In this document: in pieces, positions 1,923 to 14,835 of the stretch
How positions within the stretch are numbered: the stretch's first letter is position 1
How the letters are laid out: each line of letters begins with the position of its first letter
Virus record (IMG/VR): IMGVR_UViG_2778261506_000002
DNA length: 18,236 nucleotides
Strand: one strand, 5' to 3'
Source: a virus
Lineage: Duplodnaviria; Heunggongvirae; Uroviricota; Caudoviricetes
Notes under the pieces: model-generated
What the model saw: only the letters and a program-made list of their open reading frames with translations
The model's database searches: none
What the model was told of the DNA's origin: nothing
Made by a program: the position numbers and the translations under genes

Positions 1923-2252
1923 CTATGCCACGACCTGTTCAAAATCTGCCGTTATGGTTACCCACAGCGCCCCCACGCTTGCCGACCATTTACGACAAAC
2001 CACCCTGATCGGTTTCCAGTCATAAGGTGGCGTCCACTGAAATGCACGGACGCCACCGTGCCGTTCCAGAAAGGCTTTTAAAGATGGGTGGTCACATTTA
2101 CGAACACGTATCGTCACGCTGTAAGTCGACAACTGGTTATTCAGTCCCGCCGCACGACGCTGTTCATAACCATCGCCCAGCTTCACTGTCACCACTTTCG
2201 GCTCTGATACCACATTCATATCCGGGCGCACTTTCCAGTGAAACGTCTCCAT
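1923..2252 (-). CDS. M: Minor tail protein M (lambda gpM-like)
   Basis: 109 aa, same length as lambda gpM. Start overlaps the tape-measure stop as TAATG. Lies between H and L. Confidence 0.85.
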   Translation of the reverse strand: METFHWKVRPDMNVVSEPKVVTVKLGDGYEQRRAAGLNNQLSTYSVTIRVRKCDHPSLKAFLERHGGVRAFQWTPPYDWKPIRVVCRKWSASVGALWVTITADFEQVVA

Positions 2253-5200
2253 TACCGATATGCTCCACTTAACCGACCACCATCACGGGCCTGCTGTTGC
2301 ATAAAGTCCACTGCCGCTTTTTTCCCGAGGTCATAAACCGCCTTCAGGGCAGCCGGACCTATCTGCCCGTTCGTGCCATCGTTATTGATCTCGATGTTGT
2401 ACTGCGGGGCAAACATCGCCATACCTGAACCACCAATATCCGCCACAACCCCCAGCTTACCGTCAGCACCACGACGCAGTGGCAGAATGGCTTCAGGTCC
2501 CGCTTCCCCCATCACACCCGCGCCTTTTGCAAAAGCAAAAAACGTCGGACGGTTAACCACCGTGCCACTGTAACGACTCAAATCAGCAGACTGATAAATC
2601 CCCCCATTGGCATTCAGGGAAAGGCTGCTGAGATCAAATCCCAGTACACTGCCAATCCCTTTTATCGATTTCATCATGGTTGCCTGCGCCAGGATTTTCG
2701 CCATATCTGACAGCACAGAAGAGGTGAAGGATTTGAAATTGAGTTTGCCGGTAGTGACAAAAGTTGCCAGGCCATTTCCCATGTTGCTGAAGGCTGACGA
2801 GAACACCTGTTCTGCTGTTCCTGCCGTATTATCTGCATCCACGGTAAAATTCTGAAATGCACGCAGGACTCCGTTTTTCCAGTTACCCTGCACAACTTCA
2901 AGCTGTTGCCAGTAACGGCGATTCTCATTCAGTTGTCGGTTCAGGCTCTCCGTCAGCGCCTGCTCGGCCTTTCTGTAGTCATCCGTGTTATATGTTCCTT
3001 TCTGCTCACTATCCCGCCTCAACTGCTCCAGCTGTTGCTGGTATTTCTGGCGAAGACTCAGTTGTACCTGATATCGCTGCCGCTGCTGATCACCCATACC
3101 CACCGTGGCGATATCCAGGTCATGTTGCTGACGCTGAGCGCGCTCTTCTTCAGCCAGTTGACTGGTCAGCTGAATTGTTTTTTTCTTCAGCTCGTTGAGT
3201 GCCGTCTGTTTCTGAAGCTCCTGCTGTTTTACATCCAGCAGCGTCAGTGCCTGAATCAGTTCATCTTTACGGGCCAGCACACTCTTTTCATCTGCCGTCA
3301 GTTTTTTCCCGTCCAGGTCGCTGATGCGCTGCTGCAGAGCCAGAAGCTGTTTATGCGCTTCTGTCATCCTTTCCGTGGCAATGCCTGCTGACTGTCTGGC
3401 AGCAGCAATCTGTCCTTCCACCTGTGCCTGTTGCTGACTGTACTGCAGCAATAACCGGGTGGCCTCATCATTACGGGGTTCGCGTGTTTTTTTCTTACCG
3501 GATGCCAGGGCTTTCTCGTAACGTTCATTTTCACGTTGTATCGCCGCATCCCTGACAGCCTGATCGGCGTACTGCATGGAATTAATACGCGCAATTTCAC
3601 GCTGATGTCGTGCTGCTTCCGTTTCATTCATCCGGTTCAGTGCAGCATTTTCAGCATTACGGCGTTTCTGTTGCTCCTGATAATTCTGCTCTGCCTGCTC
3701 TTTTGCATCCTGCAAATCCTTCTGGCGTTTTTTCTCCTGAAGCTCGTTAAGACGCTGCTGATCGTACTCAACCTGAGAAGATGATGCCGTCCAGGGGAGT
3801 CTTTTCGCCCGCGACACTTTCTCCTGTAAAGCGGAAATCTGTTCATCCAGCGAGTCTTCACGACCAATATTCATGGCCGCATCCCAGAAACGACTCCATA
3901 AATCAGACAGATACTTCAGCGTACTGCCCAGCGCATTGAGGTTATTATCAATATCCGCAGTACGCCGACCGGTTTCCTCTGCCAGTGCAGACATGGCTAT
4001 CCGTGCCGCATCACTGGACCGCCCCTGTTCCCCAAGGACGCGTATCTGCTCAAGCTGAGTGGCAGTAAGAAAATGCAGCTCATTGTCCAGAGCCTTCGCG
4101 GCATTTACAGGATCATCCTTCAGCCGCTTAAACTGATTTATGGTATCGCTGACCGACTGGCCAACCGATCGCTCCATCTGTGCGGCAGCTCTCGCCACCA
4201 TACCGATATCGTTTCCACGAAATGCACCACTCCCCACCACCTGAGCCAGCGCACCGGCTGCAGCATGTTGCGTGATACCATTCCCGGAAATAGCACGACT
4301 GAGCGTCCACAGCTGCCCGGCAGTGACTCCGGCATAATGCCCCGTCAGCGACAACTGGCGGTTAAATTCTTCCCCCTCCTTCTGACCATCATACCAGGCT
4401 TTACCCAGACCATAGACGGCCGCGGCAATACCGCCAATAACCCCGCCCAGCATCATGCCTTTCGGTGACATCAGTGTGTCTATCCATCCGGCACGGTTAG
4501 CCAGCGTTATCCCGGATCCCCTCAGCGCACCTAAATTGCCGCGAGCCAGTTCACCTATCAGAACGCCTATCTCCTGGCGGGCCGCTGCACTTTTCAGACC
4601 CAGCGAATGCGTGGCTTTTCCTGCCTGCTCCATTTTGCGGATATACACTTCTGCAGCACTGCTTACCCCCAGCTGGGCAGCCTTAGCACGAAGCAACTCA
4701 GAAGAAGAAAGATTCTGGCGGGTTGCCTGCTCTTTAAGCTGACGGATAAACGCCACTTTCTGTCGGGTAGCCTCTTCCTCAGCCTGTGTAAGAACACGGG
4801 TTTTCGCAGTAACCTCAGAAATCAGCGCCAGATAATCCTGCTGACCAATCCCGCCACTGTTTCTGGCCTGTCGGATCTGCTGCTGAATACGCTGTAATTC
4901 CTGCAGCCCCGCACTGGCCTGTTTCACACTGTCAATCTGACGATAAAACGCAGCAGCCGCTTTATCCTGAGCCTCCGCCAGAGCCATGGCCTGCGCCTGT
5001 TCCTCGCGCATTTTCTGGCTCAGTGCCTCCATGCGCTGGCGGGTTTTCTCCACCTCGCGGGCCATGCGTTCATGAGCCTGTGCGTTCTTCTCCACCGTCT
5101 GCGCATGGACGGATGCGGCTGTTGCAGCCGAAGAAGCTGCCTGCGTTGTCTGCCGGGCGGCCTGAGTCTGACGCTCCATAAAACGCTGCATACGGGCAGA

Positions 5201-5317
5201 AGACCGTTCTGCATCGCTGGCTGCACCATTCAGAAGGTTTTTGATACGGGGAATTTCATTTTTAAACTCTGCCGCATCAATCCCCAAATCAATGACCAGG
5301 TTGGCTATCTGGTCCAT
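2252..5317 (-). CDS. H: Tail tape measure protein (lambda gpH-like)
   Basis: Track ORF 2252..5347 starts at a TTG; ATG at 5317 is preceded by GGAGG at 8 nt. About 1021 aa, with a long Ala/Gln/Glu/Arg-rich coiled-coil core and a Gly-rich C-terminal region typical of tape measure proteins. Placed between G/T and M. Confidence 0.9.
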   Translation of the reverse strand: MDQIANLVIDLGIDAAEFKNEIPRIKNLLNGAASDAERSSARMQRFMERQTQAARQTTQAASSAATAASVHAQTVEKNAQAHERMAREVEKTRQRMEALSQKMREEQAQAMALAEAQDKAAAAFYRQIDSVKQASAGLQELQRIQQQIRQARNSGGIGQQDYLALISEVTAKTRVLTQAEEEATRQKVAFIRQLKEQATRQNLSSSELLRAKAAQLGVSSAAEVYIRKMEQAGKATHSLGLKSAAARQEIGVLIGELARGNLGALRGSGITLANRAGWIDTLMSPKGMMLGGVIGGIAAAVYGLGKAWYDGQKEGEEFNRQLSLTGHYAGVTAGQLWTLSRAISGNGITQHAAAGALAQVVGSGAFRGNDIGMVARAAAQMERSVGQSVSDTINQFKRLKDDPVNAAKALDNELHFLTATQLEQIRVLGEQGRSSDAARIAMSALAEETGRRTADIDNNLNALGSTLKYLSDLWSRFWDAAMNIGREDSLDEQISALQEKVSRAKRLPWTASSSQVEYDQQRLNELQEKKRQKDLQDAKEQAEQNYQEQQKRRNAENAALNRMNETEAARHQREIARINSMQYADQAVRDAAIQRENERYEKALASGKKKTREPRNDEATRLLLQYSQQQAQVEGQIAAARQSAGIATERMTEAHKQLLALQQRISDLDGKKLTADEKSVLARKDELIQALTLLDVKQQELQKQTALNELKKKTIQLTSQLAEEERAQRQQHDLDIATVGMGDQQRQRYQVQLSLRQKYQQQLEQLRRDSEQKGTYNTDDYRKAEQALTESLNRQLNENRRYWQQLEVVQGNWKNGVLRAFQNFTVDADNTAGTAEQVFSSAFSNMGNGLATFVTTGKLNFKSFTSSVLSDMAKILAQATMMKSIKGIGSVLGFDLSSLSLNANGGIYQSADLSRYSGTVVNRPTFFAFAKGAGVMGEAGPEAILPLRRGADGKLGVVADIGGSGMAMFAPQYNIEINNDGTNGQIGPAALKAVYDLGKKAAVDFMQQQARDGGRLSGAYR

Positions 5318-6016
5318 AACGCACACCTCCGGAAATACCTTCCCCAAGATGCATCAGTTCTTCGTCCGTTCGCTCCGGTATCCCGTTCTCTTCCGGTAAA
5401 AGGCTGAAATCAGCCACCGCAGCATCACTGCTACCGGACACCATTCTCACGATCAATGCCTTCAGCGAGGCAAACTGCGCATCCATCCACACATCACTGA
5501 AGCTCTGCATCCGGAAATAATCGCCCCACTCACCAAGCTCAGTGGCCGACATTTCCGACAGCATCCGCCGCCAGTCTGCCCGCCGGAACTCCCGGGCAAG
5601 CCGCATGACAAACTGCATTTCCCGCGTCAGGACTTTTCCGGCGTCAGCACCTCATGCTCCAAATCCCCGGCATTCTCAATGACTCCCATACCGCTCAGCG
5701 ACAGAACCATCTCCGCCCCCGCTCCCAGGGCATCATACGACCATGTTGTAATAACGGATGCGCAAAGCGTCTCAACATCCTGAGACTGTTCCGCATTCCA
5801 CAGTGAGCGGGAAACCAGCCAGGCATTGATATCCATCCCCATCCGCAGAAAAGCAATCTGTCGTTCAGCCTCCGGCAGTTCTCCCTCTTCGGCATCAAAC
5901 TTTGCCGTTCGCTGCTGAACAAACGCCAGATATTCAATTCTCTGCAGCCCGGACAGCTCACTGAGCACCACGGACTGCTTTTCATAATTAAACGTGCCCT
6001 GTTTCAGAAACATCAT
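5289..6016 (-). CDS. Tail assembly chaperone G-T fusion made by programmed -1 frameshift (shift site about 5633-5639)
   Basis: The ORF ending at 5289 (track 5289..5618) is in the -1 frame relative to G. That frame is open upstream to a TGA at 5652-5654, so it overlaps the last 8 G codons. The overlap contains the minus-strand heptamer G GAA AAG, one base different from lambda's G GGA AAG. G/T upstream of the tape measure gene is the conserved siphovirus arrangement. Confidence 0.6.
5627..6016 (-). CDS. G: Tail assembly chaperone G (lambda gpG-like)
   Basis: Track ORF 5627..6055 starts at a TTG; tandem ATGs at 6016 and 6013 follow GGTGGAG (spacing 3 and 6 nt). Lies between V and the T frame. 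The TTG at 6055 cannot be excluded as the start. Confidence 0.7.
   Translation of the reverse strand: MMFLKQGTFNYEKQSVVLSELSGLQRIEYLAFVQQRTAKFDAEEGELPEAERQIAFLRMGMDINAWLVSRSLWNAEQSQDVETLCASVITTWSYDALGAGAEMVLSLSGMGVIENAGDLEHEVLTPEKS
5633..5639 (-). other. Candidate -1 ribosomal frameshift slippery site (GGAAAAG) at the G/T junction
   Basis: Zero-frame codons CCG GAA AAG TCC TGA; -1 frame reads GCC GGA AAA GTC. This is the only A-rich slippery run inside the 24-nt G/T overlap. Confidence 0.45.
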
Positions 6017-6030
6017 GTTCTCCACCTGCA

Positions 6031-6053
6031 AAAAAGCCCCGGATAACCGGGGC
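6031..6053 (-). terminator. Intrinsic terminator-like hairpin between the major tail gene V and G
   Basis: Minus strand reads GCCCCGG-TTAT-CCGGGGC followed by TTTTT: a 7-bp GC stem, 4-nt loop and U-run. Sits 21 nt after the V stop and just before the G Shine-Dalgarno. Confidence 0.55.
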
Positions 6054-6073
6054 AAATGATGAGTATCGTCCTG

Positions 6074-6817
6074 TTAACCTGCGGCGCTGACAGCCACCGC
6101 AGCCACTGCCACAAAATCGCCGTCAGAAGTCATGCCCACAATGCTGACACTGCCCTGCTTCACGCCTTTCACCGTGGCCACAAGCCCGTTCAGGGTCACC
6201 GTGGCAGTCTGTGGATCTGTCGAATGCACACTGATCGCTTTGTCACTGGCTCCGTCAGGTTTTACTGTAAAGGTCAGCGTGGTGGTTGCTCCCACTTTTA
6301 CACTGGCAGATGCCGGTGCCACCGTCAGCCCGGTAACGCTCACTGTTTCAGTGCCTTCCTCTGCCAGATACGGACGCCCCACACCGCTGATTTTCACTGT
6401 GCGGGTCATCACGTCTTTTGAGGCAATGGTTTTACCCAGTGAGCTCAGCCAGCCACGGAAAACATCAACAGTGCCGTTGGGATATTTGATACGAAACGCG
6501 CAGACTTCACCGGAGTCGAACAACTGAACCAGTTTTTTCTGCCCGCTGTCACCCGGACGCCAGGCCAGCGTCGCCGAAGTATCACCGACGGATTTCTGCC
6601 CCTGGGTTGTCGTTTTCCAGTCTGCATCTTCATCATCGAGATAAGTGTCATCTTCTGCATCAGCGGTCATTTCGCCAGGTTGCAGATCCTTCACCATCGC
6701 AAGACGCAGCCAGTCAGTGTCCGATAAAGGGTTCGCAAACGCATCGCCCTTGCCGGTGTACATCCAGAACGTCGTTCCCGCACCTTTCGTTTTTGCCAGT
6801 GGATTTGGTGTGGTCAT
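6074..6817 (-). CDS. V: Major tail protein V (lambda gpV-like) with C-terminal Ig-like domain
   Basis: Track ORF begins at GTG 6823; ATG at 6817 is preceded by AGGAGG at 5 nt. Translation M(A)MTTPNPLAKTKGAGTTFWMY...LDDEDADW...YPNGTVDVFRGW... matches my memory of lambda gpV along its length. The Thr/Val/Ser-rich C-terminus resembles the Big_2-like domain. Confidence 0.9.
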   Translation of the reverse strand: MTTPNPLAKTKGAGTTFWMYTGKGDAFANPLSDTDWLRLAMVKDLQPGEMTADAEDDTYLDDEDADWKTTTQGQKSVGDTSATLAWRPGDSGQKKLVQLFDSGEVCAFRIKYPNGTVDVFRGWLSSLGKTIASKDVMTRTVKISGVGRPYLAEEGTETVSVTGLTVAPASASVKVGATTTLTFTVKPDGASDKAISVHSTDPQTATVTLNGLVATVKGVKQGSVSIVGMTSDGDFVAVAAVAVSAAG

Positions 6818-6828
6818 TGCCACCTCCT

Positions 6829-14291: not shown

Positions 14292-14819
14292 CTAGAGACT
14301 CTCTCCTTCCTCATCAGGAATTAATTCAGCAGCACAAGCCTCGTAGGATTTTTCCTGAAGAGTGTATCGCAGGTCATCAATGGCCTGCTGTACAACGCCG
14401 ACGGCCTGAGGAGTCAGGGCGCAATCGCGTTCAAGAACATCCGGAATTGTCTCCAGAACCTGGACGACAGCCTTTCTCATGGACGAATAGACGATGACTA
14501 CTTCATCAACTGGGATGAGTTTTCGCTGCTCCTTTTCCAGCTTGATCCTTTCATTTTCAGACTGGTACCAGTCTTTTCTCTCTTTCGGCTCCATACGGGA
14601 TGGATCATGAACAGAGTCTGCTGCCTCATGCTTCACACTAAACAGGGCGGGCCCGACATGCTGCAGGGCGTAAACGGGGTTCCCCCTGACAGTCGCAGCC
14701 ACAGGAGTGTTGGCCGCGAGGAGCCGTTTTTTTACTGTGTCCCGGTGAAGCCCAAAGGCCTCGGCGATTTTAAAAACACTCCAGTAATAAGCATCACCGA
14801 TCCCGCTCACATTTGACAT
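14292..14819 (-). CDS. Terminase small subunit (N-terminal helix-turn-helix, Nu1-like role)
   Basis: Immediately upstream of the large subunit. N-terminal SVFKIAEAFGLHRDTVKKRL is HTH-like. ATG at 14819 has GGAG 6 nt upstream; the track start 14831 has none. About 175 aa. Confidence 0.7.
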   Translation of the reverse strand: MSNVSGIGDAYYWSVFKIAEAFGLHRDTVKKRLLAANTPVAATVRGNPVYALQHVGPALFSVKHEAADSVHDPSRMEPKERKDWYQSENERIKLEKEQRKLIPVDEVVIVYSSMRKAVVQVLETIPDVLERDCALTPQAVGVVQQAIDDLRYTLQEKSYEACAAELIPDEEGESL

Positions 14820-14835
14820 AAGCAACTCCATCTGG

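What the first reader, a model, noticed from the sequence alone, without database searches (positions are those of the whole stretch)
5620..5655. G/T programmed frameshift present, with a non-canonical slippery heptamer
The T-frame ORF is in the -1 frame of G and overlaps its last 8 codons, as expected for the conserved tail-chaperone frameshift. The only slippery run in the overlap is G GAA AAG, not a canonical X XXY YYZ and one base off lambda's G GGA AAG. Either P-site re-pairing tolerates a G:U at the middle position or slippage is single-tRNA on AAA-G. This may change the G to G-T ratio.
Basis: partly seen in the sequence, partly recalled or inferred. Interest (0 to 1): 0.45.

Follow-up and report, generated by a model that had tools for sequence, protein, structure and literature searches.

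The report
Known tail-chaperone frameshift site, common variant
This is the well-known ribosomal frameshift that lambda-like phages use to make a small amount of a fused tail-assembly chaperone, and its "odd" slippery sequence G GAA AAG turns out to be the commonest form in this gene family and is already marked as the shift site in the public records of phages N15 and LLS.

Summary
On the minus strand, G (6016..5627; Pfam Phage_TAC_2) is followed by a T reading frame (open 5651..5289; Pfam Phage_tail_T). T is in the -1 frame of G, and the two overlap by 8 codons. The only in-phase slippery run in the overlap is G GAA AAG (5639..5633). It sits at the position that aligns with lambda's proven G GGA AAG.

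The site is not unusual for the family:
- GGAAAAG is the heptamer in 35 of 46 non-redundant lambda-type G/T loci from over 25 enterobacterial genera.
- Carriers share as little as 35% T-protein identity.
- It is annotated as the -1 slippery sequence in phages N15 and LLS.

Heptamer positions 1, 2 and 4-7 are almost invariant. Position 1 is a wobble base of G, yet it is G in 44 of 45 degenerate codons against 18 expected. This favours a two-tRNA slip: tRNA-Lys re-pairs perfectly and tRNA-Glu re-pairs with a middle G.U. Slippage of tRNA-Lys alone fits less well.

I found no supported downstream RNA structure. An SD-like GAGGTG lies 8 nt upstream of the heptamer, but it is not conserved. No frameshift rate was measured.

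Verdict: an ordinary, already-recognised feature.

The parts
5633..5639 (-). Shift heptamer G GAA AAG. The 0 frame reads GAA AAG (Glu-Lys). The -1 frame reads GGA AAA.
   Evidence: Sequence read. It aligns with lambda GGGAAAG. The same heptamer is annotated as the -1 slippery site in LLS and N15. Positions 1, 2 and 4-7 carry 1.65-2.0 bits in 46 non-redundant loci.
5627..6016 (-). Gene G, the tail assembly chaperone. It is 129 aa from ATG 6016; RefSeq uses ATG 6013. The TGA stop is at 5629..5627.
   Evidence: ORF list. Pfam Phage_TAC_2 at E 7e-40. It is 33% identical to lambda gpG. PGAP names it 'phage tail assembly chaperone G'.
5289..5651 (-). T reading frame, in the -1 frame of G, open from 5651 to the stop at 5291..5289. 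Only 5633..5292 would be translated, as the C-terminal 114 aa of a 242-aa G-T fusion.
   Evidence: Pfam Phage_tail_T at E 5e-15. It is 39% identical to lambda T, with the alignment starting at the GK of the heptamer. The fusion was translated.
5652..5654 (-). TGA that closes the T frame upstream. It sets the 5' limit of the window in which a shift can occur.
   Evidence: Sequence read. Frame analysis shows the T frame open 4 codons upstream of the heptamer in this lineage.
5648..5653 (-). Shine-Dalgarno-like GAGGTG, 8 nt upstream of the heptamer (10 nt from its GAGG core). It is a candidate stimulator specific to this lineage.
   Evidence: Duplex with the 16S 3' end is -9.2 kcal/mol. Only 8 of 382 9-mers in G pair this strongly or better, the three that span this site included. 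It is not conserved. Many close relatives have GAGGCG at -5.6 kcal/mol, and phi80-type loci have none.
5616..5618 (-). ATG that database records use as the start of a separate T gene. It is probably not a real initiation site.
   Evidence: cdtI and RefSeq annotate T from this ATG. T-frame residues upstream of it are conserved across the family, such as the Glu of the E-[LM]-x-F motif. In 27 of 46 relatives the first T-frame ATG lies 25 codons after the heptamer, inside the conserved domain.
2252..5317 (-). Tape-measure gene H. Its ATG at 5317 overlaps the end of T. It is the downstream neighbour that defines the G/T position.
   Evidence: Pfam TMP_2, Tape_meas_lam_C and TMP_4. The RefSeq start maps to 5317.
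6074..6823 (-). Major tail tube gene V, the upstream neighbour.
   Evidence: Pfam Phage_TTP_12 at E 6e-67, plus Big_2.

Best explanation
A small fraction of ribosomes translating G slip back one base on G GAA AAG (5639..5633). They read on in the T frame and make a 242-aa G-T fusion, with junction ...VLTPEK|VLTRE.... The rest terminate two codons later and make G (129 aa).

The slip involves both tRNAs. A-site tRNA-Lys (anticodon mnm5s2UUU) moves from AAG to AAA and re-pairs perfectly. P-site tRNA-Glu (anticodon mnm5s2UUC) moves from GAA to GGA. It keeps the first-position G:C pair and the third-position A:U pair and accepts a G.U in the middle.

By analogy with lambda, G and G-T then act as tape-measure chaperones, and the T part recruits the tail tube protein.

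What is shown here: the gene identities, the frame geometry, the homology of the site to lambda's, and nucleotide-level conservation of the heptamer. What is inferred: that slippage happens at all, its rate, and the two-tRNA mechanism.
For: G and T are lambda gpG and gpT homologues lying between V and H.

The heptamer aligns with lambda's G GGA AAG.

Across 75 loci recovered with peptide patterns unrelated to the heptamer, the aligned position always carries NNNAAAR. The counts are GGAAAAG 46, GGGAAAG 20, GGTAAAG 4, GGCAAAA 2, AGAAAAG 2 and GGGAAAA 1. Stx phages add AAAAAAG and a Vibrio phage adds CCCAAAA.

In some loci the T frame opens only 1-2 codons upstream of the heptamer. In others the G stop follows it directly. 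Taken across the family, the only shared place to shift is the heptamer.

Information content is 1.65-2.0 bits at positions 1, 2 and 4-7, against at most about 1 bit in the immediate flanks.

Position 1 is a G-frame wobble base following codons for 7 different amino acids. It is G in 44 of 45 degenerate codons against 18.3 expected. This is what P-site first-base re-pairing predicts and what a Lys-only slip does not.

GGAAAAG carriers share as little as 35% T identity and fall in 8 of 12 T clusters.

T cannot be made on its own in most relatives.

N15 and LLS curators annotate GGAAAAG as the -1 slippery sequence.

G_GA-type P-site codons are recognised natural shift sites (PMC5009743).
Against: No experiment on this sequence is available to me.

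In a purified E. coli system G GAA AAG gave mainly 0-frame product and was classed as 'less slippery', with only one tRNA able to slip (PMC6924986).

A_AAG alone is barely above background in vivo without a stimulator (PMC4066793).

I found no supported downstream structure. For the window z = -0.82 and +1.09. Across 36 loci the mean z was -0.05.

GGTAAAG and GGCAAAA relatives exist whose P-site tRNA would have a true middle mismatch. Middle-position pairing is therefore evidently dispensable.

Conservation of GG could in principle have another cause.
Confidence: 0.6

Rival explanations
1. The frameshift occurs at the same site, but only tRNA-Lys slips, from AAG to AAA on the A_AAG tetramer. 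The tRNA-Glu does not re-pair, and the GG at positions 1-2 is irrelevant to the mechanism.
For: In E. coli A_AAG is the most shift-prone tetramer, and it is used naturally at G_CGA_AAG in IS1222 and at A_CGA_AAG in B. subtilis cdd (PMC4066793; PMC5009743). The only fully invariant bases in the family are the AAA run and G2. Position 3 varies (A, G, T, C), and relatives exist with GUA or GCA in the P site. [quoted passage not shown]
Against: Position 1 of the heptamer is a synonymous site of G. It is G in 44 of 45 degenerate codons against 18.3 expected, and position 2 is always G. A Lys-only slip places no constraint on these bases. Without a stimulator A_AAG gives about 0.15% against a background of 0.11%. 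That looks too low for a chaperone needed at roughly 1 per 30 in lambda.
Confidence: 0.3
2. There is no frameshift. T is translated independently from the ATG at 5618, as annotated in cdtI and in RefSeq E. coli genomes.
For: An ATG exists at 5618. Public records annotate T as a separate CDS starting there.
Against: T-frame homology to lambda T and other relatives runs upstream of this ATG, right up to the heptamer. In 27 of 46 relatives the first T-frame ATG is 25 codons downstream, inside the conserved LAREF..RPDWR region. The sequence before the ATG (GCGGGAAATG) offers only a weak GGGA, placed too close to serve as a ribosome-binding site. The heptamer would not be conserved at synonymous sites under this model. 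From my own recollection of Levin et al. 1993, which I did not read here, lambda T is not made separately; the review only records that G-T is made by frameshifting.
Confidence: 0.04
3. The fusion is made by RNA polymerase slippage on the A4 run, or by a shift at another site or in another direction.
For: None specific. A run of A is present.
Against: Four A residues are far shorter than known transcriptional slippage runs; this rests on established knowledge and was not tested here. The 8-codon overlap holds no other in-phase repeat. The comparative limits of the two frames leave only the heptamer.
Confidence: 0.02

Closest known systems
Bacteriophage lambda G / G-T -1 programmed frameshift at G GGA AAG (Levin, Hendrix & Casjens 1993; Xu, Hendrix & Duda 2004, 2013, 2014)
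   Same: The protein families are the same (PF06894 and PF06223). The gene order V-G-T-H is the same, and so is the -1 direction. The shift site sits at the same aligned position, with tRNA-Lys on A AAG in the A site.
   Different: The third base of the heptamer is A rather than G. The P-site codon is therefore GAA (Glu) rather than GGA (Gly), and re-pairing has a middle G.U. The G stop lies 1 codon after the heptamer rather than 5. T is 114 aa rather than 146 aa. The window has an SD-like GAGGTG upstream that lambda lacks.
Phage N15 genes 14/15 and phage LLS genes 11/12. GenBank features read 'slippery sequence for -1 translational frameshift' and 'minus-one programmed translational frameshift site GGAAAAG'. 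Phi80 and Gifsy-2 carry the same heptamer.
   Same: The heptamer G GAA AAG is identical and in the same phase and position. The G/T architecture is the same.
   Different: The proteins are only about 43-54% identical in T. In the N15, phi80 and LLS type the G stop is 5 codons downstream and there is no SD-like element. As far as I could find, these are annotations rather than experiments.
A_AAG tetranucleotide/hexanucleotide shift sites (IS1222 G_CGA_AAG, B. subtilis cdd A_CGA_AAG) and G_GA / G_GU near-canonical heptamers (dianthoviruses, insect flaviviruses, T7 gene 10)
   Same: The A-site tRNA re-pairs fully, while the P-site tRNA re-pairs only in part (PMC5009743).
   Different: Those cases generally rely on strong stimulators such as pseudoknots or hairpins. 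None is supported here.
E. coli dnaX A AAA AAG with an upstream Shine-Dalgarno-like stimulator
   Same: tRNA-Lys slips on A AAG. In the window an SD-like element sits 8 nt upstream of the heptamer (10 nt from its GAGG core), close to the about 10 nt I recall for dnaX (describe the dnaX stimulators but not the spacing).
   Different: There is no downstream hairpin. The SD-like element is not conserved in the family or even among close relatives.

Membership tests
Lambda-type tail assembly chaperone G/G-T with conserved -1 frameshift | Two short ORFs lie between the major tail (tube) gene and the tape-measure gene. | tested here: met
   The order is V (6823..6074), G (6016..5627), T frame (5651..5289), H (5317..2252), all on the minus strand.
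Lambda-type tail assembly chaperone G/G-T with conserved -1 frameshift | Sequence homology to gpG and gpT. | tested here: met
   PF06894 at E 7e-40 and PF06223 at E 5e-15. BLASTP against lambda G gives 2e-16 and against lambda T gives 6e-29.
Lambda-type tail assembly chaperone G/G-T with conserved -1 frameshift | The second ORF is in the -1 frame and overlaps the 3' end of the first. | tested here: met
   T codons start one base 5' of G codons. The overlap is 5651..5627.
Lambda-type tail assembly chaperone G/G-T with conserved -1 frameshift | A canonical X XXY YYZ heptamer lies in the overlap. | tested here: not met
   G GAA AAG breaks the XXX rule at base 3. The same is true of 35 of 46 non-redundant family members and of the annotated sites of N15 and LLS. 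The strict rule is therefore not a good membership criterion for this family.
Lambda-type tail assembly chaperone G/G-T with conserved -1 frameshift | An in-phase site lets the A-site tRNA re-pair in the -1 frame, at the position homologous to lambda's site. | tested here: met
   A AAG is in phase. It aligns with lambda's A AAG. The AAA run (positions 4-6) is invariant in 46 of 46 loci and position 7 is G in 43 of 46.
Lambda-type tail assembly chaperone G/G-T with conserved -1 frameshift | The second ORF has no independent start and is made only as a fusion. | tested here: inconclusive
   The window does have an ATG at 5618. However, conserved T residues lie upstream of it, and 27 of 46 relatives have no ATG for 25 codons. 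Protein evidence is needed.
Lambda-type tail assembly chaperone G/G-T with conserved -1 frameshift | A G-T fusion is produced at a low, fixed percentage and is required for tail assembly. | not testable with these tools
   This needs a reporter assay, an immunoblot or mass spectrometry, plus genetics.
dnaX-type stimulated -1 frameshift | An upstream SD-like element at about 10-14 nt together with a downstream stem-loop. | tested here: not met
   The SD-like GAGGTG is present, 8 nt upstream of the heptamer (10 nt from its GAGG core), at -9.2 kcal/mol. It is not conserved. No downstream structure beats shuffled sequence.

The most novel reading that the evidence does not exclude
The near-cognate heptamer G GAA AAG, not lambda's textbook G GGA AAG, is the ancestral and selectively preferred shift site of lambda-type G/T chaperone genes. 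It would set a lower G-T fraction, or one tuned differently. Both slipping tRNAs (Glu and Lys) carry mnm5s2U34, so tail assembly would be coupled even more tightly than in lambda to the host's tRNA thiolation and sulfur status. Weaker variants such as GGTAAAG or those ending in A AAA would be compensated by an upstream SD-like element or an adjacent stop codon.
Probability: 0.2. Interest if true: 0.45.

Novelty: already known. Interest (0 to 1): 0.2.

Why it matters
For this window it matters little. It is the standard lambdoid tail-chaperone frameshift, in a prophage module found in about a third of complete E. coli genomes.

Two practical points follow. First, RefSeq/PGAP and most phage records annotate G and T as separate genes and miss the fusion. 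Frameshift finders that require X XXY YYZ will miss the majority form of this family.

Second, the family is a ready-made natural series for testing how much P-site re-pairing contributes to -1 slippage in bacteria. It offers GGA-, GGG-, GGU- and GGC-A AAG, plus A AAA AAG and C CCA AAA, all at one homologous position. It would also show how phages set the G:G-T ratio.

Tried and rejected
Downstream stimulatory RNA structure. Folding 53 and 93 nt after the heptamer gave z = +1.09 and -0.82 against shuffles. A 36-locus survey gave mean z -0.05, with only 1 locus below -2. A GCCAG...CUGGC long-loop hairpin recurs in some lineages, but it coincides with conserved T codons and is absent from the window. 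I rejected it as a general stimulator.

Upstream SD-like stimulator. The window's GAGGTG is strong, and the family shows a dip in SD-pairing energy 14-19 nt upstream. This dip largely reflects a conserved Glu codon (GAR). Phi80- and N15-type sites have none, and close relatives vary between GAGGTG and GAGGCG. I kept it only as a lineage-specific candidate.

Bare motif enrichment. GGAAAAG occurs 7 times in the window, which is not informative.

First IMG/VR scan. It returned 80 loci, all 100% identical in T, so it said nothing about conservation. I replaced it with the one-genome-per-species scan.

Literature. No open-access paper in the library links GGAAAAG with 'slippery'. Xu et al. 2004 (Mol Cell) is not held. 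I could not check whether it lists this heptamer or tested it.

Full report
WHAT IS THERE.

The window is a lambdoid (mEp460 / cdtI / Ayreon-type) morphogenesis region, 97.6-99.6% identical to 17 phage records over 5250..6080. The same module occurs at >=95% identity in 1841 of 5426 complete E. coli genomes.

All relevant genes are on the minus strand:
- V, 6823..6074. Pfam lambda tail tube, E 6e-67.
- G, 6016..5627. Pfam Phage_TAC_2, E 7e-40.
- T-homologous frame, open 5651..5289. Pfam Phage_tail_T, E 5e-15.
- H, the tape-measure gene, from ATG 5317.

Read 5'->3' on the minus strand, the end of G is GAG GTG CTG ACG CCG GAA AAG TCC TGA. The T frame is closed by TGA at 5654..5652. Its codons begin one base 5' of the G codons, so it is the -1 frame. 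It overlaps G over 5651..5627, which is 7 sense codons plus the stop.

Taking each G codon with the base before it, only A AAG fits Z_ZZN and none fits X_XXY_YYZ. G GAA AAG at 5639..5633 is therefore the only candidate.

IS IT MORE THAN CHANCE?

The bare 7-mer is not. It occurs 7 times in the window against 2.75 +/- 1.77 expected. One other copy (14538..14532) is even in slip phase inside another ORF, where the -1 frame stops after 10 codons. Significance comes from position and conservation.

Homologous position. Lambda's end of G reads GCG GGA AAG TGT. BLASTP and MAFFT alignments of the T frames start exactly at the Gly-Lys encoded by the -1 reading of the heptamer. The window's heptamer is therefore the positional homologue of lambda's shift site, which the literature records as demonstrated (PMC5009743; PMC3296357).

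Family survey. I scanned one genome per bacterial species with peptide patterns taken from the conserved middle of T (ARE[FM][GR]R[PA]DW and RxMLxxM...). These patterns are independent of the heptamer. The scan returned 78 loci, and I could place the frames in 75 of them. The heptamers at the aligned position were:
- GGAAAAG, 46.
- GGGAAAG, 20. About 17 of these are identical lambda DNA in non-host assemblies, which is contamination.
- GGTAAAG, 4 (Pantoea).
- GGCAAAA, 2.
- AGAAAAG, 2 (Morganella).
- GGGAAAA, 1.

After collapsing near-identical sequences, 46 remain, and 35 of them carry GGAAAAG. Stx1 phages have AAAAAAG, Stx2a phages GGGAAAG, and a Vibrio phage CCCAAAA at the same place.

GGAAAAG carriers span Escherichia, Citrobacter, Kosakonia, Serratia, Proteus, Providencia, Kluyvera, Klebsiella, Enterobacter, Sodalis, Salmonella (Gifsy-2) and others. 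Their T identity falls as low as 35% (median 48%). They occupy 8 of 12 T-protein clusters, and lambda's GGGAAAG is nested among them.

Pinning the site. In some relatives the T frame opens only 1 codon (Edwardsiella) or 2 codons (Pantoea, Providencia) before the heptamer. In others (Proteus, Providencia, Morganella, Kluyvera, Ewingella) the G stop follows it immediately. The only stretch shared by all in which a -1 shift can join the two frames is the heptamer itself.

Nucleotide-level selection. Information content is 1.85, 2.00, 0.91, 2.00, 2.00, 2.00 and 1.65 bits at heptamer positions 1-7, against at most about 1 bit in the immediate flanks. Position 1 is the wobble base of the preceding G codon. 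That codon encodes seven different amino acids (Ala, Leu, Pro, Lys, Thr, Val, Met). It ends in G in 44 of 45 degenerate cases, against 18.3 expected from the codon usage of the same genes.

T is not a separate gene. Database records, including RefSeq/PGAP and cdtI, start T at ATG 5618. But conserved T residues lie upstream of that ATG. In 27 of 46 relatives the first T-frame ATG is 25 codons past the heptamer, inside the conserved LAREF-RPDWR block.

HOW IT MOST LIKELY WORKS.

The best-supported reading is a -1 programmed frameshift on G GAA AAG. It yields a 242-aa fusion with junction ...HEVLTPEK|VLTREMQF....

E. coli tRNA-Lys (mnm5s2UUU) shifts from AAG to AAA and re-pairs fully. E. coli tRNA-Glu (mnm5s2UUC) shifts from GAA to GGA. 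It keeps C36:G and U34:A and forms U35.G in the middle. The anticodons are established knowledge, and one search confirms that both tRNAs are MnmA targets.

The near-invariance of G at positions 1 and 2 is what two-tRNA slippage predicts, because the tRNA for a GNA codon has C36 and can re-pair with G1. A Lys-only slip does not predict it. The variability of position 3 (A, G, U, C) shows that the middle P-site pair is dispensable. I put about 0.9 on 'functional -1 shift at this heptamer'. Within that, I put about two to one on two-tRNA slippage over a Lys-only slip.

RATE AND STIMULATORS.

Nothing here measures the rate. Lambda shifts about 4% of the time, giving about 30:1 G:G-T.

In a reconstituted E. 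coli system G GAA AAG gave mainly 0-frame product under conditions where G GGA AAG slipped readily. The authors called it 'less slippery' (PMC6924986). In vivo, A_AAG without a stimulator is barely above background (0.147 against 0.112%) and reaches 5.6% only with a pseudoknot (PMC4066793). The intrinsic rate here is therefore probably lower than lambda's unless something helps it.

I found no supported downstream structure. The window gave z = -0.82 and +1.09, and 36 loci gave mean z -0.05.

Upstream, the window has GAGGTG (5653..5648), which pairs with the 16S 3' end at -9.2 kcal/mol. It lies 8 nt before the heptamer (10 nt from its GAGG core), close to the roughly 10 nt I recall for dnaX. 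However, many near-identical relatives have the weaker GAGGCG. Phi80/N15-type GGAAAAG sites have no SD-like element at all. I treat it as a lineage-specific candidate only.

Two suggestive patterns appeared, both on small numbers:
- All four GGTAAAG (Pantoea) loci carry a strong GGGGAGGA at -11 kcal/mol at the same distance.
- All three enterobacterial heptamers ending A AAA are followed immediately by TAG.
These hint at compensation for weaker sites.

COMPARISON WITH WHAT IS KNOWN.

This is a member of the lambda G/G-T chaperone frameshift family. It meets every architectural and homology criterion I could test. It fails only the strict X XXY YYZ rule, which most of the family also fails.

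The exact heptamer is already annotated. In the N15 reference genome it is marked 'slippery sequence for -1 translational frameshift' (NC_001901, 10027..10033). In phage LLS it is marked 'minus-one programmed translational frameshift site GGAAAAG', with a joined CDS. Gifsy-2 and phi80 carry it too.

Near-canonical G_GA and G_GU P-site codons and A_AAG-only sites are recognised classes (PMC5009743).

I found no open-access paper discussing GGAAAAG as a phage slippery site. I could not read Xu et al. 2004. Whether it has been tested experimentally therefore remains unknown to me.

VERDICT.

The feature is ordinary and already recognised. The modest added value has three parts. The 'non-canonical' heptamer is the majority, and probably older, form in this family. 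Its first two bases are under nucleotide-level selection, which favours two-tRNA slippage with a tolerated G.U. And mainstream annotation still misses the fusion.

Noticed in passing
window 6027-6053, minus strand: A terminator-like hairpin, GCCCCGG-TTAT-CCGGGGC followed by T6, lies between the major tail gene V and G. The same spot is annotated as a terminator in Ayreon and mEp460 and as a putative rho-independent terminator in N15. It may lower G/T/H transcription relative to V.
   Followed up: partly
window 14532-14538, minus strand (inside ORF 14831..14292): A second G GAA AAG lies in slip phase within a 179-aa ORF. The -1 frame stops after 10 codons, so a slip there would only truncate the product. 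This is probably chance, and it shows that the motif alone means little.
   Followed up: yes
window 5616-5618 and 5289-5618; L165, L002: RefSeq/PGAP and the cdtI record annotate G and T as two separate CDS, with T starting at ATG 5618 and no ribosomal-slippage join. Ayreon starts its 'GpGT-like' CDS even further downstream. The module is present in 1841 of 5426 complete E. coli genomes, so the fusion is missed very widely.
   Followed up: yes
loci L139-L151, L158-L162 (genome contigs): About 17 assemblies of unrelated organisms hold short, low-coverage contigs identical to phage lambda across G/T. They include Kitasatospora, Neobacillus, Oceanobacillus, Shewanella, Leeuwenhoekiella, Enterococcus, Paenibacillus, Pseudoxanthomonas and Psychrobacter. 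This is almost certainly lambda DNA contamination of sequencing libraries, and it inflates the GGGAAAG count.
   Followed up: partly
loci L134-L136, L152 (Pantoea); L095, L097, L133: Weaker-looking heptamers come with possible compensation. All four GGTAAAG loci have a strong SD-like GGGGAGGA (-11 kcal/mol) about 10-12 nt upstream. GGCAAAA (two loci) and GGGAAAA are each followed at once by TAG. The numbers are small and were not tested statistically.
   Followed up: partly
window 5651-5653 (GAG codon, 13-11 nt before the heptamer) and the aligned column in 46 loci: A Glu codon (GAR) five codons before the Lys codon of the heptamer is conserved in about 41 of 46 loci, at 1.4 bits. It could be a protein-level feature of the G C-terminus or part of a weak SD-like element. 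I could not separate the two.
   Followed up: no
window 6074-6823, minus strand: The major tail protein carries a C-terminal Big_2 Ig-like domain (residues 163-241, E 2e-11), in addition to the lambda tube fold.
   Followed up: no
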